Virus record (IMG/VR): IMGVR_UViG_3300037400_003528
Coordinates: 64,001-128,000 of that record
Reading direction: 5' to 3' (one strand)
Length of the DNA stretch: 64,000 nucleotides
DNA from: a virus
Positions 6,740-55,704 of this stretch are shown piece by piece. Position 1 is the first letter of the stretch. Every line of letters starts with the position of its first letter. Position numbers and translations under genes: made by a program. Under the pieces are notes generated by a model. That model was not told the DNA's origin, searched no databases, and saw only the letters and a program-made list of their open reading frames with translations.

Positions 6740-6741
6740 AT

Positions 6742-23325: not shown

Positions 23326-23354
23326 CGTTAAAACTACCTCCTTAATCTAATTAG

Positions 23355-34576: not shown

Positions 34577-34842
34577 TATTCATGTTCTCCTATTGCTTCA
34601 TCTAAAATTTCACAAAAACGTAGTATATCTCGTTTAGCCACATCATAATATTGAGATTTTTCTAATTTATGATCTCTTGACCATTCTAATTCAGCCATAG
34701 CTTCTCTAGCCCGAATATATCTATACACTAAAGAATCATATTGATAACCTTTTAATTTTTTTTCATCTTTTTTTGTAAATAATTTAAAGACAGTATCACC
34801 AATTCCTATTTCTTTTACTTCAGTATTTACAAATTCTGCCAT
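34576..34842 (-). CDS. hypothetical protein (88 aa)
   Basis: Supplied ORF coupled to the helicase start. Confidence 0.45.
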   Translation of the reverse strand: MAEFVNTEVKEIGIGDTVFKLFTKKDEKKLKGYQYDSLVYRYIRAREAMAELEWSRDHKLEKSQYYDVAKRDILRFCEILDEAIGEHE

Positions 34843-35264: not shown

Positions 35265-37079
35265 TTAAAATACAAAATTGCCACGGTCTATAATCTAATA
35301 ATCCTATATAAAAATTTGAGGAGATATATTTCCCATCCATTCGTTTTGATGTGCTCTTCCTATTATATTTAATTCATAATAACCAGAAGTATTCTGTAAC
35401 ATATAACATTCTTCATCAGTTGCTTTAAATTTAATTAATGATATACCTTGTGGAGTAGTTATCTTTAAAGTATTATTTTTCTTAACATAAACTGTTATCA
35501 TATCTGAAGTTACTTTTAAATGCTAAATACATATAAATGGTTCATCTATATCTTTACCCCATAAATCCTACATATTAGCAATAGTAAGTATATCATTCGG
35601 ATTTATATTATTTCCTTGATAAATATAATCTACATAATACATTGCCTAATTAGGCATGTCTTTTAATAACTCATCTGTTTTTTCTATAAATGCAGGAATG
35701 TTTTCCTACAATATACCTAGACCAAATGCTCCAGGATGACCTACCTAATACATCGTTAAATCTGTGTCCGCGCATATACTTTTAAAATCATTTATTCCTA
35801 CTTTATCACATCCTCTTGCAGAGCCTTGATATGTAGTAACTATCTAAGGAAAAGGCTGTTTTTCTCCTGGAGAAAGATCTGTATAAATAGTAATTTTAGG
35901 TATTTCCACTTTTGTTAATAAACATGTAGGCCGCTGATATTTAGCCATAATTTTATTAGCAATTAAACCTGCAATATTCTTATCAACTTGTCCAGGTTCA
36001 AGTAAAAATAATAATACTTTATGGTCTAAAAGATGTTGCTCCTATATCATTCTTTCTATTGTTTGTAACCCTGCCTCTTGTGCTTTTGTTTGTCTGTTTT
36101 TAACATTAGTAACAACTCGCATAACTTGCTAAACAAGTTGTTCCATTTCTCCAGGAGCATGTCCTCTTTTTGTAGAAGGTAACATTTTAAACGCTTTATG
36201 CTTTAACATAGATTCAAATGTCAATGTTTTTTCTTCTATTGTTCCGCTTCTGCAAATAGCATTAATATAAGGAGCCACATAAAAAGCTACACTCATATGA
36301 TTAATTTTATTATTCATAGAAAAAGCATTTTTTTCAGATAAATTTACAAAGAACGGATTTTTAAGATTATGAAAACCTTTATTAATAAGATGTTTTGTTT
36401 CAATAGATAGCATAGACATCATATCAGCACAGTTACCTAATGCCATTAAATCAGTATAATTATCAGCATTATTAATTTTGAGCAAAGAATCAAGATAACG
36501 ACAAAATTGCCAAACAACACCAGCACCGCTAAAATCTTTATTAGGATAATCTGATAATTGATTGTTTATAACAATAGCATCAGGATTCTATATATCACAA
36601 ATATGATGGTCTAAAATAATTATATTAATATTATTTTGTTTTAAACGAGTACATTCTTCTATATCATTACTCCCTGCGTCTGGGACAATAACAAGAGAAT
36701 ATACTTTAGCTTCAATTATCCAATCTATATGGTCATTTAATCCATGCTGTTTTCCTTTATGTATACAATAATCTAAATTAGTTTCTACCCAAGCGGGAAA
36801 CAGGTCATGTAGATAATTAATCAAGATTGCAGAACTGGTAAAACCGTCAGCATCACTATCTATAATAACTAAACATTTATTATTATTTTTAATATTTTGT
36901 ATTAAAAGACTGGCGGCCGCCTATAATTTTTCTCTATCTAATTCTTTAAAAGAATTTATATCGTTATCTGTTGTATTAAGATAATGATATACTTCATTAT
37001 AAGGAATTCCCCTATTAGTTAAAATTTGTTCTATTGTTGAATAACTCTAATTAATAGGATTTATTAATTGATATTTCAT
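35265..37079 (-). CDS. DHH-family phosphoesterase (RecJ-like), 604 aa, ~13 TAG
   Basis: Motifs 'IIDSDADGFTS' and 'IIILDHH' are present. The frame links ORFs 36588..36824, 36129..36485 and 35304..35501. Confidence 0.75.
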
Positions 37080-37120
37080 ATTTTTTTGTTACCTTTCTTT
37101 TATTATTTTCTCTTCTTTAT

Positions 37121-37163: not shown

Positions 37164-38315
37164 TCAAACTGTAATCCTATTTTTAAATAATTCTATAAAA
37201 ACATCAGGCCCATTGTCGATAGGGGACATTTTAAAATCTAATAAATGTTCCTTATCCCATAAAAAACTTATTTGTACTTTTGTACAATATTTTTTATTAA
37301 TATCAATTAATTTCTTAGTCCATTTTTTCCAAGTGTCGTCCCCTATTTCTTCATATTGTCTATCAAAGCCAATTATAATTTCTTGTACTCCAAGAGATAA
37401 AAGCATATCAATTTGATAGTTGATTAAATTACTTCCACATGCGGCAACTGTAATGTCATTCTCGATACCGAAATAACTTTCATATAGAAGCGGACTTTTT
37501 TCACCTTCAAAAATAATAACCTTTTTTATATTACGTATATTATCTTTACTAACGTTAATATTATATAAATTAAAACCTAATGGATGATTATACATTTTCC
37601 CATGAATTATTGCAGGAATATATTTCCCTCTTGCTTCATTTTCTTTAAGGAGCGTCCGCTCTCTAATACCAATTAATTCTCCATTAATATTATAATGAGG
37701 AATAAGTATACCTTGAGTTATAGGATTGTAACGTATATTATGATATTGAATTACTTCTTGTGATATACCTTCTTTAATCCATGGAAGTATAATAGGCTGT
37801 GGAAAATTTTCCAAAAAATCGCATTGAAAAGTATTGAGAGAGACAATTTGATTGCTTGATTTTTTATGTTTTTTTGCTTCTAATTTTGAAAAAATTTGCC
37901 AATCTGGTAATTCTGAATGTTTCTCTGAAAAAATTTCATTTGGCGGCTCAATATTAAAAAAGACTGCAACATAATGAACAGCATCAGGTAAATCCCATGG
38001 ACGAGATACTTTTTTACCTTCTTTAGACCAATATACAACTTGTTCTTGTGCTGTTGCTTTTATTTTTAATGTTAATTCAAAAATATCAAATGTATCATTA
38101 CATTGTGTAAAACATTTAAATAATTTTGTATTATCATAATAATATAATTTAAAAGAACCATGACCAGGCGGATTATGACAAATTGTACGTGATATAATTA
38201 CATCGTGATGAATTTGTGGTTCTCCGCCCATATCAGTAAGGAATTCATATACCTGGTCAATCGTCAAATTGTTCTTTATATCTTCGAGATATTTCTTTCT
38301 TTCTATTTCGTTCAT
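37164..38315 (-). CDS. DNA primase (Zn-ribbon + TOPRIM), 383 aa
   Basis: Zn ribbon 'CHNPPGHGSFKLYYYDNTKLFKCFTQC' and TOPRIM-like 'IIFEGEKS'. Confidence 0.75.
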   Translation of the reverse strand: MNEIERKKYLEDIKNNLTIDQVYEFLTDMGGEPQIHHDVIISRTICHNPPGHGSFKLYYYDNTKLFKCFTQCNDTFDIFELTLKIKATAQEQVVYWSKEGKKVSRPWDLPDAVHYVAVFFNIEPPNEIFSEKHSELPDWQIFSKLEAKKHKKSSNQIVSLNTFQCDFLENFPQPIILPWIKEGISQEVIQYHNIRYNPITQGILIPHYNINGELIGIRERTLLKENEARGKYIPAIIHGKMYNHPLGFNLYNINVSKDNIRNIKKVIIFEGEKSPLLYESYFGIENDITVAACGSNLINYQIDMLLSLGVQEIIIGFDRQYEEIGDDTWKKWTKKLIDINKKYCTKVQISFLWDKEHLLDFKMSPIDNGPDVFIELFKNRITV

Positions 38316-38451
38316 TTTCTTTTGCTTGGACTTGTTTTAGTTTTTTACAACCGTTACAATTATTTTTATTTTTACACCACCAACAATTATCATTTTCCCA
38401 CCAATACCAATGAGGTGGAGATGGTCTAGGCTTACGAAATTTCTTTTTCAT
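38257..38451 (-). CDS. possible small basic Trp/Cys-rich protein (64 aa); overlaps the primase start
   Basis: The supplied ORF reads 'HWYWWENDNCWWCKNKNNCNGCKK'. It is uncertain because of a 59-nt overlap with the primase gene. Confidence 0.25.
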   Translation of the reverse strand: MKKKFRKPRPSPPHWYWWENDNCWWCKNKNNCNGCKKLKQVQAKENERNRKKEISRRYKEQFDD

Positions 38452-38667: not shown

Positions 38668-38895
38668 TTATTTTATATAAATATCTTCATCTTCATCTGG
38701 GATTTTTATAATTTGTATCCACTCAGATAATGGACAAAATGGAAGTTTTCCTATCTCTGGATTAAATTTATACCCTCCAGACATTTTTGTAGCATAACAG
38801 GTAAGATAATCTCCACTGTCATCTAAAAGAGGACATTCACTACAAGTTTTAGAAAAAGGAATATCAATATGTGTTACAACTTTTTTTATCTTCAT
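38668..38895 (-). CDS. hypothetical Cys-containing protein (75 aa)
   Basis: Supplied ORF containing 'CSECP...CYA...CP'. Confidence 0.4.
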   Translation of the reverse strand: MKIKKVVTHIDIPFSKTCSECPLLDDSGDYLTCYATKMSGGYKFNPEIGKLPFCPLSEWIQIIKIPDEDEDIYIK

Positions 38896-40433
38896 TAAAA
38901 TGCGCCTTTCTCTGGAATAACATTAACTTTAAAATCTTCCATTTCAATTAATTCATAAACATATGATGTAGCAAATATAGGATTAATTCTACATGTACCT
39001 AAATCAGCCTTACACCATAAAAGAATATGATTATATCTACCTCGTCTATTTTTATATATAGACATTTTAAGATTAGGAATTTCCATTCCCTTTTCAGAAC
39101 AAAGTTTATTTATAACTTCTTTATCTGCTTCCGTTAAATTTAGAAGAATACTACCTGCATCAATTTTATCGGCAATAGATTTTGCACCACGAAGAAGATT
39201 TTGATCAAAAATTGTAACGCTAGTATAATCACCATTTAATTGTGTACTTGACATAATGAAAATATTATTTTCAACAGCAAGGTCTTTAAGTCTAACGCTA
39301 ATCATAAAAAGAACATTATCTTCTCTTAAACCTTTTACGGATGCGCGAGAAGCTACTTCAGAAAGAATCTTCATGCTACTATGAATATAATCTAAAAAGA
39401 AATAACTAATATTATAGCTTCTAATAGAAGTTTTAACTACATTCTCAATATCCTTTAAAGAAAAATCATGGAGTTCTTTTAAATATAAAGGACTTTTTTC
39501 AATTAAATCAATAGCGTGAAGAACTCTTTCTTCCTCGTCTCCAACATATTTATATGTTAGAATATGCTCTTCATTTACACCAGATAAGAAAGCCCACATC
39601 ATAGTTTGAACTTCATCAAATTCTTGTTCTGTCATAACATACATAGCTGGTTGAGCGGGACCTGTGCTTACCCATTGTTTCTTTTCTAAATCATAAATTT
39701 CATTACAACCTATATAACAAGCATCTGCGGCCATTGCTCTAGATTTACCTACATTAGTTGCTGCTGAACGTAGATAAAATTTACCAAGGCGAGCACCACG
39801 AAACACGGTATTGATAAGTCTCCCATATAGAGGATAACCAATATCAGGATTATTTTTTAATTGTTCAAATAACTGGCGGCCACCCTTACCAGCTTGAATT
39901 ATACCGTCTGCCGCTCCGCCAGAATAAGATATTTTAATATTATCAATTTTCTCGTCAATTAAATCAATAATTTCTTGTTCAGTATGATTATCTAACCAAT
40001 CTTCCTGTGCTTGTTTTTTCTTTTGGTCAAAAATATTATTTAAATCATATAACCAAGATAAGTCCATACCTATCTCTTCATTATATAATCTAAGTAGTGT
40101 CATCTTTTTTAAACGATGATAATAATAATTAAATGCGGCAACCTGTGAATTTTCACTTATCTTTTCAAGATATTCTGACCCACGATTAGCTTTATATACA
40201 GCTAATTTTTTTGGTCTTGATTCAAGATAATCTTCGATATTAGCAGAAGATATTTTTCTAACACCCAATTGATGTAAATTATATATACTACCAAAAATAA
40301 CTTTATGAAATTCTTCTATAAAATCGTCAAGAGTAAAAGTATACTGTTCATCTTCTAATATCTAAGGATTTTGATATACACTGCCTATGATTTGAATTAT
40401 TGCTGATGTATCTGTATATCTAACTTTACCCAT
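38895..40433 (-). CDS. DnaB-like replicative helicase (512 aa, 1 TAG near the N terminus)
   Basis: The upstream extension 'MGKVRYTDTSAIIQIIGSVYQNP.ILEDEQ' gives a DnaB-type N-terminal domain. A RecA-fold Walker A 'SAATNVGKS' is present. Confidence 0.75.
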
Positions 40434-43160: not shown

Positions 43161-43994
43161 TTAATTAAACAAAATTAATTCTTCAGCATATGGTAATGTT
43201 TTTACCCAATCACAAAAATTTTTTCTCCATTCTGTAAGTTTATGATTTTTACGTTGATTATACATATTTCGTAAAGTTTCATAATTAGCTGTCCAAGTTC
43301 TAGTTTGTAACCAACCATTAGGAAGCCAACGAATTAATTCTTTCCAATACCTTTTATCTTTAGTCTATAAATAACGTTTACGAAGAGTTTCACAAATATT
43401 AATGATATTATCTGCACAATCATTCATTAAATAATCTGGTGTATATGGTTCACCATCAAAAACAATTATATTTGGATTAAAATCTTCTATTTCAAAACAG
43501 TCTTTAGTAATTGGAGTGGTTGCTAATTTATGCATTGTTGACGTTGAATTAGCAACTGTTGCTACTTTGTAGGTATCTGCCTACTTCCACCAATATAATG
43601 GTGCTGTTACATCAACAGAAACAAAGATTTGACGAAGAAATTTCCTATCACTTGAACCAGCCTTAATCATACGTTGCGCAAGATCTAAATCTTTTGGACC
43701 TAATAAGGCTAAATCAAAGATTGTCATTCCATTATCATCTTCTGATAAAACGCTATTTTTTATAAGCCAGTCTATATAACTATCTTCTAATCTACAATAT
43801 TCAAGACTTCCTTCTTCAATTACTTTTTGATTATTTTTTTCTGCTTTAATATTATAATCAGTTATCCATTCATGTGCAGTTAAAAGAGTTACTTCATAAC
43901 TATATTCTTCAGGATACATTCCAAAACTACTATCACTTTTTTTCCAACTTTCAAGAGGATTACGTAAACCGCGGAACGCACCTTCAAAATTCAT
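43161..43994 (-). CDS. hypothetical protein (277 aa, 2 TAG), possibly nucleotide-metabolism related
   Basis: ORF 43581..43994 extends across TAG to TAA 43161. The N terminus 'GAFRGLRNPLESW' was not matched to any known family by eye. Confidence 0.45.
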
Positions 43995-44017
43995 TACTTT
44001 AGTATTCTAAAATTTCA

Positions 44018-44962
44018 TTATTTATTACCTTTCGTCACATTTAAACCAACTTTATTTGATTGATACATCTAAATCCAAAATCGTTCTTTTTCATTTAATT
44101 TATCACGAGTACATTTCTAAAGAATTTCAAAAGTGAAATTCCATACACCATATTTCTGCATGTTATTATAAAGTTTATTTGTTACAGAAGCGTCTATACC
44201 AAGTCCGCATTTTATATGTTGTTTCCATCTATCTGCGATATTAACACTTTGCCCAATATAAATATCACCAGTTTGTTTATTAGTAATTTTATAAATTCCG
44301 CAGATTGTAGTAGATCCTAATACACGATTACACAAATCAGAAGTAGGTTTCATTATGAAAGCAGACCAAATAATTTTAGAAACAATAGAAGGATCATTTA
44401 GTTCATTTTTCCATTCTTGAAGATGTGTAATATCGTTAATTTGTTTTTCAGATATTTTTATACGATAAAATGCAATTTTATCTTCTTCCTCTTGCTATCT
44501 AAGACGTGCGGCGGTTGCAGCCTAATATACTGATTTAAGCTAGTTTAAATTTGATTGAACTTGATCTCGTTGTTGTTGAATATTAATTATCTATTGTTTT
44601 AATTGCTACTAATAATCTTTAGCTTCTTGGGCTTGTGAAATAGAAGCATTATGATAAATCTATTTTATTTTTTTTAATTGTTCTTGATAAGTCTGTTCTA
44701 TCTATTCTAATTTTTTGCCTCTATTTTCTCTTACCTATTCTAAAATAATATATTCTTTTTGTCTTTTATTTGTTAACTATAAAATTGTATTTTGTCTCTA
44801 AGTAATACGTTCATTTAAATCATTTAATTTTTTGTGTCTTCTCTATATCTCATTTATTATCTAATTATTATATTGCTATTTTTTTTTGCCGCTTATTAAA
44901 TACCAACAAAAACAACTAGACTAAATGATAATAATAATAATAAAAATAATAATCATACTCAT
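44018..44962 (-). CDS. GIY-YIG nuclease with an N-terminal hydrophobic segment and a Gln-rich coiled coil (314 aa, ~26 TAG)
   Basis: GIY-YIG core 'GIYKITNKQTGDIYIGQSVNIADRWKQH...YGVWNFTFEIL...ERFWI' lies at the C terminus. The 5' 600 nt have no TAA/TGA and ~24 TAG. The N terminus 'MSMIIIFIIIIII.SSCFCWYLISGKKK' is hydrophobic. Confidence 0.55.
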
Positions 44963-44976
44963 TTTTTAAAAAAGAA

Positions 44977-45002
44977 TGGGTTAAGTAATAAAATACTTAA
45001 CC
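44977..45002. terminator. bidirectional terminator (gggttaagta/tacttaaccc)
   Basis: 10-bp perfect stem with a 6-nt loop, A-run upstream and T-run downstream. Confidence 0.7.
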
Positions 45003-45014
45003 CCTTTTTAAGAA

Positions 45015-45323
45015 TTATTCCATTTCTGGAACAAGTGCGCGGCCCGATTCTGTTAACTTAACAAATTTTACAGATTCATGTTTGATAGAGCCATCTTTTT
45101 GCTCAATTTCTAGTTCGCCTTCAACTCTCTTTGCCCAAGGATCTTTTACCTTTTCTCCATCAACATCTTTCATATGACGAACGAATGCACCAGTAATAAT
45201 ACCATTTACCTGTCTGGGATCTAATCCAAGTGCTGCGGCAATATCCTTTGCAGTAATATCCTCATCTTCATGCTGTTTTAGATACTGAAATACATTATAA
45301 GTGTTTTCCTTAAATTTAACCAT
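45015..45323 (-). CDS. HTH DNA-binding protein, putative transcription regulator (102 aa, no TAG)
   Basis: 'DITAKDIAAALGLDPRQVNGIITGA' is helix-turn-helix-like. The gene has its own consensus promoter and terminator. Confidence 0.5.
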   Translation of the reverse strand: MVKFKENTYNVFQYLKQHEDEDITAKDIAAALGLDPRQVNGIITGAFVRHMKDVDGEKVKDPWAKRVEGELEIEQKDGSIKHESVKFVKLTESGRALVPEME

Positions 45324-45370: not shown

Positions 45371-45399
45371 ATTATACTAAAAATTTTTATATTTGTCAA
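45371..45399 (-). promoter_or_regulatory. sigma70-like promoter TTGACA-17-TATAAT (minus strand)
   Basis: Minus-strand reading is 'ttgacaaatataaaaatttttagtataat'. Confidence 0.7.
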
Positions 45400-45587: not shown

Positions 45588-47564
45588 TTAAAAATTATTA
45601 ACTATAGATAATAATTCTTCTTCATTAATAATTTTTACACCTTTTTCTTTTGCTTCTTTATTTTTTGTTGAAGAAGAATTAATATCATTATTTACTAAAT
45701 AATTTGTTTTTTTAGAAATAGAACCCGTTACTTTTCCGCCATTTGATTCAATAAACGTTTTAAGTTCATTTCTATTTTTAAAAGATTGTGTTTTACCTGT
45801 TAAAACAAAAATTTTATTTTGTAACGGTTTTATTTCTTTCTCTTCTGTATCAGGTACTGATGAAATAATTTCAACTATATAATTATCAAAAATACTATCG
45901 GCTTCTGTATAATTAAAAGTAGTAAGAGTTTTTATCATAACTTCACCAATACCCTTGATATTATAGAGTCTATCATCTTCATCAGGGAAATCAACAGCAT
46001 GTCTAAATCCATTATAGGTATGATATACTTTAATTAAATCTTCTGAAGCTACTTTACCTATCTGCGGAATACCAATTGCCGCAATAAATTTAGATGCTGT
46101 ACAATTTTTACTTTCTTCTATTGCTGTTAAAATTTTGTCAACAGAAGCCATACCGAAACCATCTTTTTCAATCCATTCATTACGATGCTCTTGTAATTTA
46201 AAAATATCTTCTAATGAATTAATCCATCCCCAATCAATAAGTTTTTCAAGAGTTTTTTTAGATAACCCTTTTATATCAAGTCCCTTTTTACCGCAGAAAT
46301 GGTCAAGACGATTAATTAATTTACCTGAGCACGCAGGGTTTGTACAATAAAGAACTTCACTATCATAATCTTTTCTTATTTCAGTAGGACTTCCACAATA
46401 AGGACACACTTCAGGAATAGGAATTAATGGAACATTATCAGGTTTATTTATTTGAACATAAGCTACTTGTGGTATAATTTGATTTGCTTTATAAATATAA
46501 ACCCTTTGTCCTGAGAAAGCTCCTTTCATAATGTTTTTCATAACAGAAATATTATGAAGACTTGCTCTATTACAAATAGTTCCATCAATATCAATATCAT
46601 TATAAATTAGTACGGGAGTTAATTGTCCTGTTCTTCCCATAGTCCATTCAATATCTTTTACTTCTGTTTCATATTCATCATCGTAAAATTTATAAGCAAT
46701 CCCGCCTTTAAAGTGATGATCGGTACGACCTGCTGCTTCATATTCAGCAATATTATCATATTTAAAAACAATTCCATCAATAGGATAAGATTCTTCTTCA
46801 CACATGCTCTTTATATCATTAATGACATTTTCATAATCATAATTATGTTTATTAAAATATTCATCATTTAAAAAAGGAACTGTAAGAAACTTCCAAAACA
46901 TTAAAGTAGTAAGAGTATTTGTTAAAAATACAGCTTTTGGTTCTACAATATCCCAAGCCACAAAAGTAAGATTACGTTTCTCACACTCTTTTGAATCTAA
47001 AAGTCTTATGCTACCACTTGCAAAATTTCTTGGGTTTTTATAAGAACCTTTAAAAGCTTCAAAATTTTTATAAGTACAAATAATTTCGCCATCAACAATA
47101 ACTTCTTTTGTTTTTATTGGTATATGTTTAGGAATGGATGGAATTACCATAGCATTATGGGTTATATCTTCTCCTATGATACCATTTCCTCTTGTCTCTG
47201 CGGATACTAATTCTCCATTAACGTATCGTAAAGAACAAGTAAGACCATCCATTTTAGCCATAGCAATCCATTCTTTATTATTAAGGAATGTTTTAATTTC
47301 TTCTATATCTTTTGTTTTTTGAAGAGAAAGCATAGGATGATTATGAGTAACTTTTCTTAATTTATTAACTACACTATAATGAATTGATTGTGTGGGAGAG
47401 TCAGGATAAATAAGATTAGTTTCTTTTTCAAGTTTTTCTAATTTACCGTACATTATATCCCATTCCATATCAGTAAGATATGGTTCTCCTTTATCATAGG
47501 CTTCTGTTGCTTGATTTAATTTATTTATAAAAGTTCTTATATCTTTTGAATTATTTATCATCAT
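45588..47564 (-). CDS. ligA: NAD-dependent DNA ligase LigA (658 aa)
   Basis: Adenylation domain, Zn finger 'CPYCGSPTEIRKDYDSEVLYCTNPAC' and a C-terminal BRCT-like region. No TAG. Confidence 0.85.
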   Translation of the reverse strand: MMINNSKDIRTFINKLNQATEAYDKGEPYLTDMEWDIMYGKLEKLEKETNLIYPDSPTQSIHYSVVNKLRKVTHNHPMLSLQKTKDIEEIKTFLNNKEWIAMAKMDGLTCSLRYVNGELVSAETRGNGIIGEDITHNAMVIPSIPKHIPIKTKEVIVDGEIICTYKNFEAFKGSYKNPRNFASGSIRLLDSKECEKRNLTFVAWDIVEPKAVFLTNTLTTLMFWKFLTVPFLNDEYFNKHNYDYENVINDIKSMCEEESYPIDGIVFKYDNIAEYEAAGRTDHHFKGGIAYKFYDDEYETEVKDIEWTMGRTGQLTPVLIYNDIDIDGTICNRASLHNISVMKNIMKGAFSGQRVYIYKANQIIPQVAYVQINKPDNVPLIPIPEVCPYCGSPTEIRKDYDSEVLYCTNPACSGKLINRLDHFCGKKGLDIKGLSKKTLEKLIDWGWINSLEDIFKLQEHRNEWIEKDGFGMASVDKILTAIEESKNCTASKFIAAIGIPQIGKVASEDLIKVYHTYNGFRHAVDFPDEDDRLYNIKGIGEVMIKTLTTFNYTEADSIFDNYIVEIISSVPDTEEKEIKPLQNKIFVLTGKTQSFKNRNELKTFIESNGGKVTGSISKKTNYLVNNDINSSSTKNKEAKEKGVKIINEEELLSIVNNF

Positions 47565-47761
47565 GCTTCATAATCCTCATAATTTCTATTAACAGATTCT
47601 CCGCAAAAAGGACAAATAGCTGTAATGTACAACTCATTTCTCCAATTATTACGAGTGTAAGAAGAGTTGTCTGCTTCAAAAATACAATCACATTTAGAAC
47701 AAATAAAACGTTTTGTTTCGTTCATTTTTTTTAAAGAACCATCTTTAATAATTTTAATCAT
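47561..47761 (-). CDS. small Zn-ribbon protein (66 aa)
   Basis: 'CSKCDC...CPFCG'. Confidence 0.45.
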   Translation of the reverse strand: MIKIIKDGSLKKMNETKRFICSKCDCIFEADNSSYTRNNWRNELYITAICPFCGESVNRNYEDYEA

Positions 47762-49797
47762 AGTACAATTACGGATTGAACCGTACTCCTTTCTATAATT
47801 TTTGTACCAGAACCATTTTTAGATTGTTCAGATAATTCAGATACAGTTGTACAAATAGAATTAGGTTTACCTACTACTAAAATAGAATCATCTTCTTTTA
47901 ATGGAGCAATAGAAGCTATATAATCATTTTTTTCAAGAGGAATAATATTAATACCTCTACCGTTTCTTTTTTGAATAATAAAGTTATTTATATCTACTTT
48001 TTTACTATTGCCATTACAAGTAAAAACTCCAAGATAACTAATATCTTTAGAAATATAAAAAGCAGAAACTACTTCATCATTTTCTTTTAAAGCAATTCCT
48101 TTTACACCGCTTGTAGCTTTCCCAATAGGTTTAATATCATCTGTTGGTACTTTTATAACATTACCAAATTTAGTAGCAAAAATAACATCTTCTTTATTCA
48201 TAAAAGTAACTGATAATAATTCATCCCCATCTTTAATTTTAATAGCTTGAATACCTGTTGACTTTTTTATAGAAATATATTCTTCTATTTTAGTCTTTTT
48301 TATTAAACCATTTTTAGTAAAGAAAACTACATAATTCGCAGGCTTTTCTCCAGAAATAGCTGTAGCTGTTTGAAACACTTCATTATCAGCAAAAGGAAGA
48401 AGTAAATGTAAATTAGTTCCTCTTGAAGCATTAGTTCCTTCAGGAATTTTATCTACCGCTAATTTATACATTTTACCTTTTGATGTAAATATCATTAAGT
48501 CATCAAGAGTATTAGTAGATATGGTCGTTTTGATTGCGGCATCCACAGTTTTTACACCTTTACCGTTTCTTTTTTGTATTCTAAAACTCTTTTTAGGAAT
48601 ACGTTTAATATCTCCGGTATGGGTAATAATAACTACGACATCTTCAGGAGTTATATCAATTTTTTCTTTTTCTTCTTTTACGTCGTCAATTTGAGTTAAC
48701 TCTGTACGACGTTTATCTCCATATTTATTAACCAAATCCGCCAAACGAACTTTTAACAAATCTATTTGTTCTTCTTTACTATTGATAAGGCTTTCCCATT
48801 TTTGAATATTATAAACTAATTCATTTCGCTCTTTTTCTAATTCTACACCTTCTAATTTTGCTAAACTTGAAAGTCGCATAGCAAGAATGGCTTTTGCTTG
48901 ATTCTCGGTAAAGCCCCATTTTTCAATAAGGGAGATTTTTGCTGTTGCTCCAGACTCACTTTGTTTGATAAGAGCAATGATTTCGTCAATATGAATAATG
49001 GCTCTAAGTAAACCATCAACAATTTCCTTTCTTAATTTAGCTTTTTCTAAATCAAATTGAGTTTCTTTAACGATACATTCGAGATTATGGTCTACATAGA
49101 TTTTTATAGCATCCCGCAAGTTTAATTCAGTAGGAGTTTTATCTACCAAAGCTACCTGATTATAACTAAATGAAGTTTGAAAATTAGTTTTTGCATAAAT
49201 TTGTTTTGCAATTGCATCAGGTGAAAAACCTTTTTGACATGTTACAACAATTCTAATTTCTTTAGAACTTTCATCATGTATATCATGAATACCTTTTATT
49301 TCTTCCTTGTCACAAATTTCACCAAGTTCTGTAATTAATCCTTCTATTGTAGTTCCATATGGAATTTCATAAAAGATAATTTTATTTTTATCTACTTTAT
49401 AACGTGCTCTAATTTTTACAGAACCATGTCCCGTTTCCATAATTTTAGGGATGTCATTTTTATTAATGATTAATCCCCCAGTAGGAAAGTCAGGACCAGG
49501 CAACATAGGAAGAGCACCATCCAAATAATTATATATGGCTTGACCAACATCATACAGGTTGTGAGGAGCCCAGTTACAGGCCATCGCAACACCAATACCA
49601 GTATTAGGATTACAAAGCAAATTAGGAAAGGTACAAGGGAGAGTAATAGGCTCTTTAAGACTTTCATCATAATTTGAGATAAAATCAACGTTATTTTTCT
49701 TAATTCCATTTAACATACCTTCTTCTGATATTTTACTAAGGCGGGCTTCGGTATAACGTGCGGCAGCAGGTCCATCACCTGTAATATTACCATTATT
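47758..49797 (-). CDS. type II DNA topoisomerase A subunit (GyrA/T4 gp52-like), exon 2
   Basis: Begins 'NNGNITGDGPAAARYTEARLSKI', the catalytic-Tyr region of GyrA. It continues as the supplied ORF 47758..49716. Confidence 0.75.
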   Translation of the reverse strand, partial: NNGNITGDGPAAARYTEARLSKISEEGMLNGIKKNNVDFISNYDESLKEPITLPCTFPNLLCNPNTGIGVAMACNWAPHNLYDVGQAIYNYLDGALPMLPGPDFPTGGLIINKNDIPKIMETGHGSVKIRARYKVDKNKIIFYEIPYGTTIEGLITELGEICDKEEIKGIHDIHDESSKEIRIVVTCQKGFSPDAIAKQIYAKTNFQTSFSYNQVALVDKTPTELNLRDAIKIYVDHNLECIVKETQFDLEKAKLRKEIVDGLLRAIIHIDEIIALIKQSESGATAKISLIEKWGFTENQAKAILAMRLSSLAKLEGVELEKERNELVYNIQKWESLINSKEEQIDLLKVRLADLVNKYGDKRRTELTQIDDVKEEKEKIDITPEDVVVIITHTGDIKRIPKKSFRIQKRNGKGVKTVDAAIKTTISTNTLDDLMIFTSKGKMYKLAVDKIPEGTNASRGTNLHLLLPFADNEVFQTATAISGEKPANYVVFFTKNGLIKKTKIEEYISIKKSTGIQAIKIKDGDELLSVTFMNKEDVIFATKFGNVIKVPTDDIKPIGKATSGVKGIALKENDEVVSAFYISKDISYLGVFTCNGNSKKVDINNFIIQKRNGRGINIIPLEKNDYIASIAPLKEDDSILVVGKPNSICTTVSELSEQSKNGSGTKIIERSTVQSVIVL

Positions 49798-50987
49798 CTA
49801 ATCGTTATTAACCATAGGCTTTTTGTCCTATGCTCTGGAGGTTTCCCTCATTTTCATCGAATAGTTAATTCTATTCCAGTATAGCATATCTTTTTAACAT
49901 AATAAACTCTGTTATTATACTACCCGTTAGCGCGGACTCTTGGAGATATTATATTCTTAAATTCGCATTTAAGGTTCAATCTCTATGCGTTGCGTTTGAC
50001 TATATTATTACATATAGCCTTCAATCTCTGATTAGGATGACTAAACCCTTCCAGTTTAATTCCGCGCTGATCATTCTAAATTAATTGGTAGTTTCATTTA
50101 GAACGGCATAATTTTTAACTAAGTCAAATTTTCTTTCAAGATATAATTGATTTTCATTCTCTAATATGTTATGGTAAAATTTTATTATTCCATCTTTATT
50201 AGAAATTCTTAATCTAAAAATAGAATTTATTTGATCTAATTCAATTGGATTAATTTTTATTGTTTTTTCAAGATATTCTTTAATAGATTCGCACAACTCT
50301 TTTGTTCCTGAAATACCTATTTCATGACTATTTTTAGAAAAATAACACCAACCATCCCCGTCGAAAATACCCCTAATAAAAGCATTTTGTAATTTTTCAT
50401 TGTTAAAATTATACATAGGCTCATGATTTAAAGAAATTTTATTTGGAATAATTCCATATTTTAATATTGCATTACACATTTCTCTACTTGAAATGGTTAA
50501 ATTAGCAATAGAATTTTGTTTTCCTTCTGTGAAACCAGAACCATTTTCAATTTTTATAGGAATATTACTTTTTAAACACTGATTGAATTTTTCAAGAATA
50601 GATTTATCATCAGCTTTTAGTCTAAATCGAATAGTTGTTCCAGTATTATTTCCATCTGCTAATAAAAAACCTAACCAGTATGCTTTTTCAGCAGTATCAA
50701 TTTTATTAAAGTATGTTCTATTATAAGAATATTTTTCTCTTTTTGATCGGGAAGGAATATTTAATGCTTTTAGTTTATTATAAAAGGTGCCTCGATCAAT
50801 ATTAAATTTTTTAGCTACATCTGTAGTTGATTCTTCTTCATTTTCTAAATAATACTAGAGAGCTTGTTTATAAGTTTCATTCATTTTAATCATATAAAAT
50901 ATCTCCTTTTTATTTTTGATATTTTATATAAAATTTTACCATAGAAATTTAATCAATTTTTACCTTGAATGTTAAAAATTTTTATTT
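49798..50987 (-). other. putative group I intron (~1.19 kb) splitting the topoisomerase A-subunit gene
   Basis: Exon 1 ends '...RYPLIDWHG' and exon 2 begins 'NNGNITGDG', reconstructing the GyrA motif 'YPLVDGQGNFGS.DGDGAAAMRYTE'. The 3' segment 49798-50080 is GC-richer with P7/P8-like pairings (agtata...tatact) and a terminal G. An endonuclease ORF is embedded. Confidence 0.5.
50081..50893 (-). CDS. intron-encoded LAGLIDADG homing endonuclease (270 aa, 1 TAG)
   Basis: Motifs 'WLGFLLADGN' and 'FIRGIFDGDGW' are present, with its own RBS 'aaaaggagat'. Confidence 0.8.
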
Positions 50988-52096: not shown

Positions 52097-53995
52097 TTAA
52101 ATAAGACATTGTGCTTCTATACTGTGTTCTTTAATAAATACTTTTCTCGGAATAATAGCAGTTCCCATTAAATCATCAAATAATTTATCTGTTTCTTCGC
52201 TATCATCAATCGTAATTTGTTTAATAATTCTATTAGCAGGATTTGTAAGAGTCTCTTCTATTTGTTCAACATCCATTTCTCCTAATCCTTTCATACGATT
52301 GACTTGATACTTTCCCGTATAAGTTTTTCTAAATGCTTCAAGGTCATCATCATTCTTTAAATATTTATAACCTTTATTTCCACCAAGAGTAATTTTATAA
52401 AGAGGTGGAACTCCAGCATAAATGATACCGTCATAAATCAATTGAGGACAAAAGTTCCAAATAAAAGTATAAAATAGATTTTTAATATGAGCACCGTCTA
52501 CGTCAGCGTCACTCATAATAATAATTTTACCATAGCGGAGTCCATCACGGTCATATGTAACCCGCATTGTTTTTGTATCAATCTTTAAACCAAACGCTTC
52601 AATCATAGTCATAATCTCAGCATTTTTTTGAATCTTATCTAAGGTAGCTTTTTGTGTATTAAGGATTTTACCACGGACAGGCATTACAGCTTGAAATTCA
52701 TTATTACGTGCCGTTTTTAAACCACCTGCCGCACTATTTCCTTCAACAATATAAATTTCACATCTTTCTCTATCTTCACTATAGCAGTCCGCAAGTTTAC
52801 TATCAAATTTTAAAGCCTTTTCTTTTTTCTTTCCTTGCTCTCTTGCTTTTTCTCTTGCCTTTTTAGCAGCTTCTCTTGCTTTTTTAGCATTAATAGCTTT
52901 GTCTGCAATAAGTTTAATTTCTTTTTCATTATTAGCTAACCAATATTGAAGATTTTCAGTTAAAGCTACATTAAAAGGTTTCATTTCAATTTTAGTAATA
53001 CGAGTTTTAACTTGTGCATCATATGATACATTTGGAGCAGTAATATTAAAAACAATATACATACCTTCTTGTATATCATCACCAGTTAAATTTTCATCTG
53101 TGGATTTAAGCCATTTCTTTTCTTTAAAAAATTTGTTAAATTCACGAGTAATAATAGATTTTACTTGTGTAATATGTTGTCCAGTTTCAGTTAAGCCAGT
53201 ATTAACATATGGAACAATAGTAGATGAATAATTAGAAGTATAGGTAAGAACCATATCCATTTTATTCTTACCTTCTGCAAAATTCATATCAAATCTATTA
53301 TTAATAAGTTCTTTATTTCCAACTGCGGCATCAACTAAATCATTTAAACCTTTATTAGATATATAGTCATATATCTTACCATTCTCATTTAAATGAATTG
53401 TTAATCCGGGGCATAGACAAGAAATAGTTTTAAATAAAGAATGAATTTTATTACTTTCTACTTCTGTATGAGTAAAAAATTCCTCTGAAGGTTGCCATTC
53501 TACTAATGTACCAGATACGCCGCCTGCGCCAGTACTTCTATTTTGAAAAACACCTTCTTTAAAATATATTTCTTCCCATTCTCCGTTTCTTATAGTTTTA
53601 ACTCTTAGCCAATGAGATAAAAATGTAGTAATTTTAGAACCAATACCAAAAGAACCTAATGAAGTTCCTTCATAAGTTCCATCTTCTCTATATTTACCAG
53701 AAGTATTAAGAACACTAAAAGCAGCTTCAAGAATTGTTTTATCGTCTTCTCTAAAATGATTTGGAAGAAAACCTTGTCCATAATCTCTTACAGCAAAAGT
53801 ATCTCCAATTATCGTTACATCAATTTGATTACCATGTCCAAGTCTAAATTCATCAATTGCATTAGAAACAATTTCTATGAGCAACTGAGTTGAATACGTA
53901 GTATCACCTGCATATACACCTGGTTTTAATCTGGTAAATTGTAATGGATCTAATGATTCTATTGATTGTTCTGTATATAAGGTTTTATCTATCAT
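52097..53995 (-). CDS. type II DNA topoisomerase ATPase/TOPRIM subunit (GyrB/T4 gp39+gp60-like), 632 aa
   Basis: Supplied ORF with a GHKL ATPase N terminus and TOPRIM 'EGNSAAGG'. Confidence 0.85.
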   Translation of the reverse strand: MIDKTLYTEQSIESLDPLQFTRLKPGVYAGDTTYSTQLLIEIVSNAIDEFRLGHGNQIDVTIIGDTFAVRDYGQGFLPNHFREDDKTILEAAFSVLNTSGKYREDGTYEGTSLGSFGIGSKITTFLSHWLRVKTIRNGEWEEIYFKEGVFQNRSTGAGGVSGTLVEWQPSEEFFTHTEVESNKIHSLFKTISCLCPGLTIHLNENGKIYDYISNKGLNDLVDAAVGNKELINNRFDMNFAEGKNKMDMVLTYTSNYSSTIVPYVNTGLTETGQHITQVKSIITREFNKFFKEKKWLKSTDENLTGDDIQEGMYIVFNITAPNVSYDAQVKTRITKIEMKPFNVALTENLQYWLANNEKEIKLIADKAINAKKAREAAKKAREKAREQGKKKEKALKFDSKLADCYSEDRERCEIYIVEGNSAAGGLKTARNNEFQAVMPVRGKILNTQKATLDKIQKNAEIMTMIEAFGLKIDTKTMRVTYDRDGLRYGKIIIMSDADVDGAHIKNLFYTFIWNFCPQLIYDGIIYAGVPPLYKITLGGNKGYKYLKNDDDLEAFRKTYTGKYQVNRMKGLGEMDVEQIEETLTNPANRIIKQITIDDSEETDKLFDDLMGTAIIPRKVFIKEHSIEAQCLI

Positions 53996-54033
53996 AGAAT
54001 TAAATTTTATCCTTTCTATAATTTTCTATAATA

Positions 54034-54062
54034 ATTATAGCAAAATTTTTATAAAAATGCAA
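54034..54062 (-). promoter_or_regulatory. promoter TTGCAT-17-TATAAT (minus strand) for the topoisomerase operon
   Basis: Minus-strand reading is 'ttgcatttttataaaaattttgctataat'. Confidence 0.6.
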
Positions 54063-54122: not shown

Positions 54123-54220
54123 AAAGAAAATAAATGACAAAAGTGCGTCTACATTTATATACATATATATCAACAGACAAAAATAAGTGTGTAGTAATAT
54201 TACTACACACTTATTTTTTA
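54123..54220 (+). ncRNA. candidate ~100-nt small RNA (promoter to strong terminator), no convincing RBS/ORF
   Basis: Bounded by the 54089-54116 promoter and an 18-bp perfect hairpin plus T6. Confidence 0.3.
54181..54220. terminator. strong bidirectional terminator (18-bp perfect stem aaataagtgtgtagtaat/attactacacacttattt)
   Basis: Palindrome flanked by an A-run and a T-run. It lies downstream of the endolysin on the minus strand. Confidence 0.8.
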
Positions 54221-54322
54221 TATTATTTCAACATATCTGAAATTAACAAATCCATAAATTTTATTATTAATTTTCACATAATACCAAGTAGTACCATTGC
54301 TTGCTTGAATACTATCACAAAT

Positions 54323-55687: not shown

Positions 55688-55704
55688 TTTGTCTCCTTTC
55701 TAAA

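What the first reader, a model, noticed from the sequence alone, without database searches (positions are those of the whole stretch)
44018..44962. Membrane-anchored, Gln-rich coiled-coil GIY-YIG nuclease with extreme TAG density
A 314-codon frame runs through about 26 TAG (24 of them in the first 200 codons, one every 8) and no TAA/TGA. With TAG=Gln it encodes an N-terminal hydrophobic helix (MSMIIIFIIIIII..CFCWYLISGKKK), then a about 170-aa Q/E/K heptad-like coiled coil, then a compact GIY-YIG nuclease domain. Free-standing GIY-YIG homing enzymes normally carry DNA-binding modules, not a membrane anchor plus a coiled coil. A tethered, oligomeric nuclease suggests a different role, such as host DNA degradation at the membrane or injection-associated or defence-related activity. 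Alternatively TAG may be partly terminating here, yielding a small membrane protein plus a separate nuclease.
Basis: partly seen in the sequence, partly recalled or inferred. Interest (0 to 1): 0.7.

Follow-up and report, generated by a model that had tools for sequence, protein, structure and literature searches.

The report
Membrane-tethered phage nuclease; TAG means glutamate
This is one real gene for a DNA-cutting enzyme held at the inside of the cell membrane on a long helical stalk, kept by every sampled relative in a large group of gut phages, and its many TAG "stop" codons are most likely read as glutamate, a genetic-code change I could not find reported for phages.

Summary
The ORF is real: minus strand, 44018-44962, 314 codons plus TAA. 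It has 17 in-frame TAGs, not about 26, and no internal TAA or TGA.

It encodes one protein:
- an N-terminal membrane anchor,
- a helical stalk of about 135 aa with a heptad-like pattern,
- a small helical module,
- an I-TevI-type GIY-YIG nuclease domain with all catalytic residues intact.

It is not a homing endonuclease. It lacks DNA-binding modules, and 43 of 43 independently sampled related phages carry it at the same position in the replication module. By profile search the family has at least 664 clusters at 50% identity and is unannotated.

The closest known system is SNIPE, a membrane-bound nuclease that cuts phage DNA during injection. The resemblance is in architecture only. DUF4041, T5orf172 and PD-Lambda-1 models do not match.

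Across 134 window TAG sites in three separate gene sets, Glu beats Gln by about 235 nats, while sister phages score as Gln under the same test. "Gln-rich" is therefore overstated.

TAG is avoided in the neighbouring replisome genes but makes up 49% of this gene's Glu codons. That suggests delayed translation.

The function is inferred: a nuclease confined to DNA lying at the membrane.

The parts
44018..44962 (-). Whole gene: 314 sense codons plus TAA (44018-44020). It has 17 in-frame TAG codons, most likely read as Glu.
   Evidence: More than 100 full-length homologues of 291-334 aa. A protein identical over 312 aa, P0001, is in the public collection; the gene caller translated TAG as Q.
44891..44962 (-). 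N-terminal transmembrane anchor, residues 1-24 (MSMIIIFIIIIII[TAG]SSCFCWYLIS). Predicted N-out/C-in topology. Codon 14 inside the helix is TAG.
   Evidence: Hydropathy. All 37 family members checked have a single N-terminal hydrophobic segment, an N-tail of 0-8 aa in 36 of them (one has a longer, probably miscalled, start) with 0-1 K/R, and 2-6 K/R in the next 15 aa.
44474..44890 (-). Helical stalk, residues 25-163. Glu/Gln/Lys-rich, with a heptad-like hydrophobic pattern, and it carries 14 of the 17 TAGs. Its sequence and length (about 100-250 aa) vary across the family.
   Evidence: AlphaFold2 helix 2-163. Periodicity 3.5-3.65 and z 5.5 against shuffles. Median identity about 24% where DnaB is about 60%. 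Stalk lengths.
44309..44473 (-). Family-specific helical module, residues 164-218 (FY.I.IS..Q..DI..L..WK..L.DPSIVSKIIWS..I.KP..DLCNRVLG). No match to any Pfam family.
   Evidence: AlphaFold2 helices 170-183 and 189-213. A profile of residues 135-220 finds 664 clusters at E<=1e-3, nearly all about 300-350 aa with the module at the same place. No DUF4041 hit.
44021..44308 (-). GIY-YIG nuclease domain of the I-TevI type, residues 219-314. Counterparts of I-TevI Tyr6, Tyr17, Arg27, His31, Glu75 and Asn90 are present and conserved. TAGs at codons 282 and 298.
44016..44020 (-). TAATG stop/start overlap with the downstream gene. The same one-base overlap occurs in L001, L005 and L007; in L003 the two genes abut without overlapping.
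   Evidence: Sequence. Gene tables.
44968..45003 (-). Intrinsic-terminator-like hairpin (10 bp stem, 6 nt loop) plus a T-run, ending 6-15 nt before the start codon. A hairpin plus T-run is present at the same place in four relatives, with a different stem sequence in L003.
43161..44018 (-). Downstream gene (285 aa, phrog_6721, weak Thy1/ThyX similarity). It is the usual but not obligatory neighbour.
45015..45323 (-). Upstream small gene (102 aa, possible winged-helix protein, no TAG), the constant upstream neighbour. It has a consensus sigma-70-type promoter at 45371-45399.

Best explanation
The region is one gene of a TAG-recoded gut phage. The host is probably a Gram-positive Firmicute. Its product is a bitopic membrane protein. 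A few residues face outside. One transmembrane helix follows, and everything else is cytoplasmic: a rigid amphipathic or coiled-coil stalk of roughly 20 nm, a small family-specific helical module, and a catalytically intact GIY-YIG DNA endonuclease domain of the I-TevI type.

Shown or strongly supported (about 0.9):
- It is a single product.
- It has this architecture.
- It is a vertically inherited core gene of the replication module rather than a mobile homing endonuclease.
- Its TAG codons are sense codons, read as glutamate.

Inferred (about 0.6): the TAG codons act as a translational lock. The first lies at codon 14, and two lie upstream of catalytic residues. No active nuclease can therefore be made until TAG suppression is working. 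The conserved terminator just upstream should also keep transcription into the gene low.

Inferred mechanism (about 0.35-0.4): the tether confines a nuclease of low sequence specificity to a shell under the membrane. It would then cut DNA that is at the membrane and spare the phage's own replicating genome. The main target would be DNA being injected by competing or superinfecting phages, as shown for the bacterial and prophage-borne system SNIPE. This would be a phage-built analogue, assembled from a domesticated homing-endonuclease catalytic domain.

The confidence value given for this explanation (0.4) refers to the whole statement including the inferred mechanism.
For: Single product and architecture:
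-.

Core gene:
- The order GyrB-GyrA-(LigA)-wHTH-TARGET-(ThyX-like)-YorF-AAA24-YorH-DnaB-primase-RecJ holds across the main clade, down to about 32-35% target identity.
- In a sample drawn through DnaB rather than through the target, 43 of 43 loci spanning the interval carry the gene. Three of them have a stop at its invariant Trp, confirmed as TGA in L130.
- The nuclease domain is as conserved as DnaB (60% against 60%). The module is at about 38% and the stalk at about 24%. SNIPE homologues show the same gradient (PMC13190303, section 9).

Not a homing endonuclease:
- Only the catalytic domain matches.
- True GIY-YIG homing genes occur sporadically in the same phages, for example splitting GyrB.

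TAG as a lock:
- The target uses TAG for 17 of 35 Glu codons. LigA, GyrA, GyrB, DnaB, primase and YorF use it for 0-2.
- The same contrast appears in eight Glu-type relatives and in most of the Gln-type relatives.

SNIPE analogy:
- SNIPE's N-terminus (MTQTP-TM-KRIKK) has the same layout, and its N-out/C-in topology was tested experimentally.
- Removing its anchor makes it cut host DNA (PMC13190303).
- The E. coli SNIPE gene I retrieved sits in a lambdoid prophage.

Gram-positive host: r1t-type holin and GH25/CHAP endolysin in a 94%-identical relative.
Against: - There is no sequence homology to SNIPE. DUF4041, T5orf172/MUG113 and PADLOC PD-Lambda-1 do not match, although they match SNIPE strongly. 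hhalign probability is 7%.
- Exclusion genes are usually accessory and fast-evolving. This one is universal and its nuclease domain is highly conserved.
- A gene translated only after suppression starts is late for an exclusion function.
- The module before the nuclease is not basic (net charge about -2 by my count), so it shows no sign of the DNA-binding surface described for DUF4041.
- The gene shares its TAG-using class with a RecJ-like exonuclease, a guanylate-kinase-like kinase, dUTPase and a ThyX-like protein. That fits host-DNA breakdown at least as well.
- Localisation, oligomeric state, substrate and timing are all untested.
- No cultured phage carries the gene.
Confidence: 0.4

Rival explanations
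1. Host-chromosome degradation for nucleotide salvage. The tethered endonuclease nicks or cuts host DNA that contacts the membrane. A RecJ-like exonuclease then digests it to dNMPs. These are recycled by the phage's guanylate-kinase-like kinase, dUTPase, ThyX-like protein and NrdD. It would be a functional analogue of T4 endonuclease II (DenA), which is also a GIY-YIG enzyme.
For: - The TAG-using genes on the replication strand are exactly this set: target 17, RecJ-like 13, kinase-like 11, dUTPase 7, RuvC-like 5, ThyX-like 3. Polymerase, helicases, primase, ligase and gyrase have 0-2.
- The stop overlaps the start of the ThyX-like gene.
- Universal presence and strong conservation of the nuclease domain fit a metabolic role.
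Against: - T4 EndoII is soluble and relies on modified phage DNA for self-protection. No modification system is evident here, and the ThyX-like assignment is weak (E 0.004, below cutoff).
- A membrane tether would limit access to the nucleoid.
- The ThyX-like neighbour is missing in several relatives (L014, L020, L022, L023, L027).
- The TAG-using class also includes lysis and virion genes, so shared timing does not prove a shared pathway.
Confidence: 0.3
2. A role in the phage's own DNA metabolism at the membrane. It could nick or process replication or recombination intermediates, or organise replication at the membrane. The precedent is phi29 p16.7, which has a membrane anchor, a coiled coil and a DNA-binding domain (from my own knowledge, not tested here).
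For: - The position inside the replication module is constant.
- Linkage to the type II topoisomerase genes persists in some distant relatives, for example phAss-1 and L039, where the order is GyrB-GyrA-target.
- Conservation equals that of DnaB.
Against: - It belongs to the TAG-using class, not the TAG-free replisome class.
- The conserved terminator upstream suggests low expression.
- Nothing indicates a structure-specific DNA-binding element.
Confidence: 0.15
3. An ordinary free-standing GIY-YIG homing endonuclease whose N-terminal part is a poorly conserved or non-coding artefact of reading through TAG.
For: The best database matches of the C-terminal 95 aa are homing or intron endonucleases.
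Against: - The anchor, stalk and module are conserved in architecture in 664 clusters.
- No NUMOD, IENR1 or HTH modules.
- A fixed syntenic position in 43 of 43 loci.
- Family members from standard-code phages have the same full-length ORF without any TAG.
Confidence: 0.03
4. Two products: TAG terminates part of the time. This would give a short membrane peptide or stalk fragment, with the nuclease made separately from an internal start.
For: Host release factor 1 presumably still competes at TAG, so truncated products are likely early in infection (inference). GenBank annotates the phAss-1 homologue as two separate hypothetical proteins.
Against: - Met205 is not conserved (Ile or Leu in relatives).
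- The longest standard-code piece (157-281) lacks catalytic Glu291 and Asn306.
- Two TAGs lie inside the nuclease domain.
- Standard-code and TGA-recoded relatives encode the same contiguous protein.
Confidence: 0.05

Closest known systems
[quoted passage not shown]
   Same: - A very short N-terminal tail outside, one transmembrane helix followed by K/R residues, an elongated helical region, a small domain, then a C-terminal nuclease of the GIY-YIG superfamily.
- The same conservation gradient: nuclease above middle domain above N-terminal region, with variable N-terminal length.
- The N-terminal regions of a few members (2-3 of 29) give weak, non-significant matches to DivIC/FtsB and PspB, the kind of similarity reported for SNIPE homologues.
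- SNIPE is also carried by phages; the copy I retrieved is in a lambdoid prophage.
   Different: - No detectable sequence homology.
- The nuclease is I-TevI/PF01541-type, not T5orf172/MUG113-type.
- The middle domain is a two-helix module of about 55 aa, not DUF4041, and it is not basic.
- It is 314 aa against 500 aa.
- It is a universal core gene of large phages that are probably virulent, sitting in the replication module. It is not an accessory defence gene.
- It is gated by a recoded stop codon.
I-TevI and related free-standing GIY-YIG homing endonucleases (PF01541, TIGR01453)
   Same: The catalytic domain matches in fold and in all key residues. It is very likely derived from such a gene, since homologous homing genes are scattered through the same phages.
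   Different: - No linker, zinc finger, NUMOD or HTH DNA-binding region.
- The catalytic domain is at the C-terminus instead of the N-terminus.
- It is membrane anchored.
- It has a fixed position and universal presence.
Phage T4 endonuclease II (DenA)
   Different: EndoII is soluble and discriminates through DNA modification. Sequence similarity is negligible.
Code 15 phages (TAG read as Gln), for example crAss-like phages and phAss-1 (PMC9523058, PMC10607447)
   Same: TAG is used as a sense codon, is concentrated in non-early genes and is avoided in replisome genes. A suppressor tRNA is presumed.
   Different: In this window and its clade TAG matches conserved Glu positions, not Gln. Sister phages of the same family score as Gln under the same test.

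Membership tests
GIY-YIG nuclease superfamily, I-TevI-like (Pfam PF01541; TIGR01453 catalytic part) | GIY and YIG motifs about 10 residues apart | tested here: met
   CGIYKIT...DIYIGQS at residues 221-238. Pfam E 2.4e-9, above the gathering score. All 29 diverse members match.
GIY-YIG nuclease superfamily, I-TevI-like (Pfam PF01541; TIGR01453 catalytic part) | Catalytic Arg, Glu and Asn (I-TevI R27, E75, N90) | tested here: met
   The HMM alignment to 1mk0/1ln0 places family Arg, Glu (NEKERFWI) and Asn opposite them. They are invariant or at least 90% conserved. In two relatives the column of the catalytic Glu is encoded by TAG.
GIY-YIG nuclease superfamily, I-TevI-like (Pfam PF01541; TIGR01453 catalytic part) | GIY-YIG alpha/beta fold | tested here: met
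Free-standing GIY-YIG homing endonuclease | DNA-binding region (NUMOD, IENR1, zinc finger, HTH) attached to the catalytic domain | tested here: not met
   Only the catalytic domain matches: TIGR01453 positions 3-89 of 215, PHROG homing families over about 95 residues. No NUMOD or HTH families in any of 29 members.
Free-standing GIY-YIG homing endonuclease | Sporadic, mobile distribution | tested here: not met
   43 of 43 loci sampled through DnaB have it at the same position. Synteny is kept across the main clade, down to about 32-35% identity.
SNIPE / PD-lambda-1 | DUF4041 (PF13250) middle domain | tested here: not met
   No hit at E<=10 in 3 members or at E<=1 in 29 members. Positive control: SNIPE itself scores E 1.2e-19.
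SNIPE / PD-lambda-1 | T5orf172/MUG113-type GIY-YIG domain and a match to the PADLOC PD-Lambda-1 models | tested here: not met
   No such hits. SNIPE scores E 1e-198. hhalign of family against SNIPE gives 7% probability.
SNIPE / PD-lambda-1 | N-terminal membrane anchor with a cytoplasmic nuclease | tested here: met
   By prediction only: a single N-terminal hydrophobic helix, with the positive-inside rule satisfied in 37 of 37 members.
SNIPE / PD-lambda-1 | Cleaves phage DNA during injection and associates with the entry machinery or tape measure protein | not testable with these tools
   Needs experiments.
Genetic code 15 (TAG = Gln) | TAG occupies positions that are conserved Gln in standard-code homologues and interchanges with CAA/CAG | tested here: not met
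   - Window, replication-module set: 9 TAGs at 124 conserved-Glu columns and 0 at 49 conserved-Gln columns.
- In the four TAG-using genes, Fisher TAG-versus-Gln p = 2e-5 and TAG-versus-Glu p = 1.
- Log-likelihood of Glu over Gln is +75, +29.5 and +130 nats in three separate gene sets.
- Sister loci (L024, L119/L236, L211/L212, L234) do meet the criterion.

The most novel reading that the evidence does not exclude
This phage lineage decodes TAG as glutamate. I found no phage or bacterial report of that reassignment; the only TAG-to-Glu code I know of is the peritrich ciliate nuclear code, table 30 (from memory). Close relatives in the same family use TAG=Gln, TGA=Trp or the standard code. The recoded codon is concentrated in a membrane-tethered nuclease that is a universal core gene. 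The gene would therefore be both a new phage analogue of SNIPE, built from a domesticated homing-endonuclease domain, and a showcase of codon-gated expression.

A possible route to the code change is my inference from known Firmicute biology. These hosts lack GlnRS and make Gln-tRNA by amidating Glu-tRNA(Gln) with GatCAB. A CUA suppressor that escapes amidation would deliver Glu. A small tRNA change could then switch a phage between the Gln and Glu readings.
Probability: 0.75. Interest if true: 0.85.

Novelty: new variant of a known kind. Interest (0 to 1): 0.75.

Why it matters
- **A second, independent design.** If the inferred mechanism holds, confining a nuclease to the membrane to tell foreign DNA from self DNA, shown so far only for SNIPE, has arisen a second time. 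This version uses a different nuclease subfamily and sits inside virulent-type phages as a core gene. That would make it a general principle, not a one-off.
- **A large unannotated family.** The family has at least 664 clusters at 50% identity and is unannotated. GenBank's phAss-1 record splits it into two hypothetical proteins.
- **A correction to translations.** Code-15 gene callers put Gln where this phage almost certainly has Glu. That affects every TAG-containing protein of this clade: 282 TAG codons in this window alone.
- **A system for studying code change.** A family of related phages using TAG=Glu, TAG=Gln, TGA=Trp or the standard code is a natural system for asking how a genetic code changes and how recoding schedules gene expression.

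Tried and rejected
- **DNA search of the region against 50,697 GenBank phage records.** Only a ligase fragment matched. Protein-level search found the module only in phAss-1.
- **Word-indexed search with the module alignment.** It returned only truncated standard-code gene calls. The exhaustive profile search was informative.
- **afdb50 fold library.** Unavailable. PDB and BFVD gave only I-TevI-type hits, plus two unnamed full-length viral proteins.
- **SNIPE homology.** Rejected after positive controls.
- **Identity of the downstream ThyX-like gene.** Unresolved.
- **Bacterial chromosomal or defence-island origin.** Rejected. All 48 hits among GTDB species representatives are MAG or metagenome-bin contigs with phage-type context. 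None is a cultured-isolate genome.
- **Hunt for the suppressor tRNA.** There is none in the window. There is none in positions 44.3k-138.3k of a colinear 142-kb relative either. I stopped there for budget reasons.
- **First TAG-identity test.** Pooling residues opposite TAG in the target family alone was ambiguous (E 25%, Q 12%). It became clear only after separating lineages and using standard-code relatives as the reference.
- **PDB alignments of the NrdD and endolysin TAG sites.** Uninformative. Those of dUTPase and the kinase-like protein pointed to Glu or Asp.
Full report
**1. The observation**

The window is AT-rich (about 28% GC). Open reading frames of 100 codons or more cover 60% of it under the standard code and 105% when TAG is read as sense. 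TAG is therefore a sense codon here.

The flagged frame lies on the minus strand. ATG is at 44962-44960, followed by 314 sense codons and TAA at 44020-44018. The + strand reading is full of stops.

There are 17 in-frame TAGs, not about 26. They fall at codons 14, 29, 34, 40, 55, 62, 76, 87, 101, 118, 119, 124, 141, 147, 156, 282 and 298. No TAA or TGA occurs before the end. With TAA+TGA at 6.2% of trinucleotides, the chance of that is about 2e-9.

**2. Anatomy of the protein**

- **Anchor.** One hydrophobic segment sits at the extreme N-terminus (Kyte-Doolittle 19-residue mean 2.6), and nothing comparable lies elsewhere.
- **Stalk.** An AlphaFold2 model built on 49 homologues (mean pLDDT 82) shows one uninterrupted helix over residues 2-163. 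In 29 diverse members the hydrophobic a/d pattern exceeds shuffles (mean z 5.5), with local periodicity 3.5-3.65. That fits a coiled coil or a long amphipathic helix. The oligomeric state is unknown.
- **Module.** Two short helices at 170-183 and 189-213.
- **Topology.** In 36 of 37 members the tail before the anchor is 0-8 residues with at most one K/R. The next 15 residues hold 2-6 K/R. The stalk and nuclease should therefore be cytoplasmic. SNIPE has the same N-terminal layout (MTQTP, helix, KRIKK), and its N-out/C-in topology was shown with PhoA-LacZ fusions (PMC13190303).

**3. One product or two**

- More than 100 full-length homologues of 291-334 aa exist. Conservation runs continuously from about residue 137 to the end, across the TAGs at 141, 147 and 156.
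- The internal Met205 is Ile or Leu in relatives.
- Under the standard code the longest piece (157-281) would lack catalytic Glu291 and Asn306.
- The stop overlaps the next gene's ATG (TAATG). The same one-base overlap occurs in L001, L005 and L007.
- Many family members come from phages with no in-frame TAG at all and have the same contiguous ORF.
- Three relatives (L129, L130, L136) have the frame interrupted by a stop at the invariant Trp of IW(S/Q)TYY, and in L130 I confirmed that the codon is TGA. These relatives therefore appear to use TGA=Trp.

The two-product idea is therefore unlikely.

**4. What kind of gene it is**

- A profile of the module alone, searched against 1.84 billion representative proteins, finds 664 clusters at E<=1e-3. 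Nearly all are 300-350 aa with the module at about residues 130-220. Twenty-five sampled members all show anchor, stalk (about 100-250 aa), module and GIY-YIG.
- In GTDB species representatives, all 48 loci lie on MAG or metagenome-bin contigs assigned mostly to Bacilli, Clostridia and Mollicutes. None is from a cultured isolate.
- The gene order is GyrB-GyrA-(LigA)-small wHTH gene-TARGET-(ThyX-like)-YorF-AAA24-YorH-DnaB-primase-RecJ. It holds across the main clade, down to about 32-35% identity.
- To avoid sampling bias I fetched 80 IMG/VR loci through DnaB. Forty-three span the interval, and all 43 carry the gene at that position.
- Where DnaB is 55-65% identical to the window's, the nuclease domain is 60%, the module 38% and the stalk 24%. 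YorF, AAA24, YorH and primase are at 40-51%.
- Genuine GIY-YIG homing genes, matching only about 95 residues, are scattered in the same phages. Several split GyrB.

This is a domesticated, vertically inherited core gene, not a mobile element.

A 94%-identical relative encodes an r1t-type holin and a GH25/CHAP endolysin, which points to a Gram-positive host. Among 50,697 GenBank phage records, only phAss-1 (OQ749652, 'Caudoviricetes code 15 clade', predicted Clostridia host) has the module. There the gene is annotated as two separate hypothetical proteins (PMC10607447).

**5. Comparison with SNIPE**

SNIPE (PD-lambda-1) is described as an elongated protein with an N-terminal transmembrane domain, DUF4041 and a C-terminal GIY-YIG nuclease. 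It cuts phage DNA during injection, and its anchor prevents autoimmunity (PMC13190303; PMC9519451).

I recovered an E. coli SNIPE gene through a published primer sequence. It lies in a lambdoid prophage next to ren, P and O.

| Test | SNIPE (control) | This family |
|---|---|---|
| Pfam DUF4041 | E 1e-19 | no hit |
| Pfam T5orf172 / MUG113 | matches | no hit |
| PADLOC PD-Lambda-1 | E 1e-198 | no hit |
| hhalign, family against SNIPE | n/a | 7% probability |

The family is not a member of SNIPE. It does share SNIPE's topology, its elongated design, its superfamily of nuclease and its conservation gradient. It is an architectural analogue.

**6. TAG is most likely glutamate, not glutamine**

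At conserved columns of the target family, TAG sits mostly where other members have Glu. The sequences with TAG at a conserved Gln column form a different set of loci from those with TAG at conserved Glu columns.

*Profile-based test.* The test follows the idea behind Codetta. For each TAG site it scores all 20 amino acids against the residues seen in relatives that have no in-frame TAG.

| Gene set | Reference loci without in-frame TAG | Window TAG sites | Best residue | Glu over Gln |
|---|---|---|---|---|
| 12 replication-module families | 46 | 35 | Glu +31.9 (Gln -43.4) | +75 nats |
| RuvC-like, dUTPase, NrdG, NrdD, kinase-like | 56 | 25 | Glu +6.8, Asp +6.5 (Gln -22.7) | +29.5 nats |
| Virion genes | 22 | 74 | Glu +28.7 (next best, Asp, -82) | +130 nats |

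In every set, other loci score clearly as Gln. Examples are L024 (-37.5), L211/L212 (-59.8), L234 (-48.9) and L236 (-56.3). L236 is the same contig as L119, which was Gln-type in the first set. The method therefore separates the two readings.

*Double dissociation.*

| Lineage | TAG share at 124 conserved-Glu columns | TAG share at 49 conserved-Gln columns |
|---|---|---|
| Window clade | 5.0% of residues | 0.6% |
| Gln-type loci | 0.2% | 8.3% |

*Other support.*
- Within the four TAG-using replication-module genes, the window gives Fisher p = 2e-5 against 'TAG is a synonym of CAA/CAG' and p = 1 for 'TAG is a synonym of GAA/GAG'. L024 gives the reverse.
- TAG aligns with the Glu of GSEDAAG and AVEIP in a solved dUTPase. 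It also aligns with both Glu of NEFIEW in yeast guanylate kinase; by my recollection one of these binds GMP.
- Counting TAG as Glu gives 5-12% Glu in all genes. CAA+CAG Gln stays at 1-5% in all genes except the target and one TAG-free gene (about 7%), whether or not they use TAG.
- In the target, TAG156 restores the family consensus LREQE, TAG282 restores FE(I/L)LE.C, and TAG298 restores FWIEMY.

*Literature and caveats.* I found no report of a phage TAG-to-Glu code. Searchable papers describe Gln, with Trp, Ile or Tyr isotype predictions for some suppressor tRNAs (PMC10879173). The suppressor tRNA was not found in the window, and it was not found in 94 kb of a colinear 142-kb relative either. 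The assignment therefore rests on comparative evidence only.

*A possible mechanism (my inference from known biology).* Firmicutes generally lack GlnRS and make Gln-tRNA by GatCAB amidation of Glu-tRNA(Gln). A CUA suppressor that escapes amidation would insert Glu.

**7. TAG density in context**

With the right synonyms, TAG is 17 of 35 Glu codons in the target (49%).

| Genes in the window | TAG share of Glu codons |
|---|---|
| Target | 49% |
| Guanylate-kinase-like gene | 61% |
| Most other TAG-using genes | 20-44% |
| DNA polymerase, helicases, primase, ligase, gyrase, DnaB, YorF | 0-4% |

The same contrast holds in eight Glu-type relatives and in most Gln-type relatives. So the gene belongs, conservedly, to the class that can only be translated once TAG is being read as sense, even though it sits among TAG-free replisome genes.

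An intrinsic-terminator-like hairpin and T-run ends just before its start codon. The same feature is present in four relatives, one with a different stem sequence. Transcription into the gene is probably attenuated. Both features fit a product that is dangerous if made early or in quantity. That reading is my inference.

**8. Mechanism**

- **Shown:** the architecture, the intact active site, the predicted cytoplasmic orientation, core-gene status, and codon-class membership.
- **Inferred:** the tether restricts a nuclease of low specificity to DNA near the membrane.

I favour attack on incoming foreign DNA, by analogy with SNIPE (about 0.35-0.4). Host-DNA breakdown for nucleotide salvage is nearly as likely (about 0.3). 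It is supported by the shared TAG class with the RecJ-like exonuclease, the kinase-like protein, dUTPase and the ThyX-like protein, and by the stop-start overlap with the ThyX-like gene. A role in the phage's own DNA transactions at the membrane remains possible (about 0.15).

**9. Verdict**

The gene is a new, widespread, unannotated family. It works, as far as sequence can tell, like SNIPE without being related to it. The codon that drew attention to it points to a genetic-code variant I could not find described for phages.

Noticed in passing
whole window (282 TAG codons in the genes listed); tested at 134 sites: TAG behaves as a glutamate codon in this phage and its close relatives, not as glutamine. 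In three separate gene sets Glu beats Gln by +75, +29.5 and +130 nats. TAG falls at conserved-Glu columns and not at conserved-Gln columns. Public gene calls such as P0001 translate it as Q.
   Followed up: yes
related loci: Gln-type L024, L036, L119/L236, L211/L212, L216, L234, phAss-1 (L009); stop at the invariant Trp in L129, L130, L136; about 46 loci with no in-frame TAG: The same phage family, with the same replication-module synteny, contains lineages using TAG=Glu, TAG=Gln or the standard code. Three loci have a stop at the target's invariant Trp (confirmed as TGA in L130), which points to TGA=Trp.
   Followed up: partly
window 22843-58921 (minus-strand block): There are two codon classes. 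TAG-free or nearly so: DNA polymerase 28185-32138, helicase 33392-34579, primase 37164-38336, DnaB 38895-40433, ligase 45588-47567, GyrA 47758-49893, GyrB 52097-54034. TAG-using: RuvC-like 22843-23370, dUTPase 23431-23988, guanylate-kinase-like 27638-28192 (TAG is 61% of its Glu codons), RecJ-like 35265-37088, endolysin 54218-55762.
   Followed up: partly
window 44968-45003 and 45371-45399 (minus strand): The small upstream gene (45015-45323) has a perfect TTGACA-17-TATAAT promoter and a strong terminator of its own. The terminator leaves no room for a promoter before the nuclease gene. A hairpin plus T-run sits at the same place in four relatives.
   Followed up: partly
window 44921-44923 (codon 14 of the target): A TAG (Glu) lies in the middle of the predicted transmembrane helix. 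The same is true in the 94%-identical relative L007, but not in more distant members. It is either a polar residue inside the membrane or simply the earliest possible translational block.
   Followed up: no
window 50081-50923 (minus) and 89-1168 (plus): Both ORFs carry paired LAGLIDADG-like motifs (for example WLGFLLADGN...IFDGDGW and LGMFASDGY...YFDGDGS), so they look like homing endonuclease genes. This rests on reading the translations only.
   Followed up: no
L019, L027, L033, L036, L050, L053 (GyrB region); L001 2649-3458; L003 7739-8377: Free-standing GIY-YIG homing-type genes, matching only the catalytic 95 aa of the target, interrupt or flank GyrB and other replication genes in relatives. 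They are a likely source of the domesticated domain.
   Followed up: partly
window 7446-16214 (plus strand): A single 2923-codon ORF with 92 in-frame TAGs, presumably a giant virion or tail protein.
   Followed up: no
L009 (phAss-1, OQ749652) 6479-7483 and 7785-8046: The GenBank record splits the phAss-1 homologue into two 'hypothetical proteins'. Two tRNA genes with anticodon CUA lie about 400 bp downstream of it.
   Followed up: partly
L058 (E. coli 118UI, NZ_CP032515) 1448-2950: The SNIPE/PD-lambda-1 homologue I retrieved sits inside a lambdoid prophage, between the ren/P/O replication genes and a P22AR-domain gene. A 44-base stretch of this gene is present, 100% identical, in 131 of 5426 complete E. 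coli genomes.
   Followed up: no
window 1-64000; relative IMGVR_UViG_3300021399_000006 positions 44.3k-138.3k (L329, L139, L221, L250): No tRNA gene of any kind was detected in the window. None was detected in 94 kb of the colinear 142-kb relative either, so the source of the TAG-decoding tRNA is unknown.
   Followed up: partly
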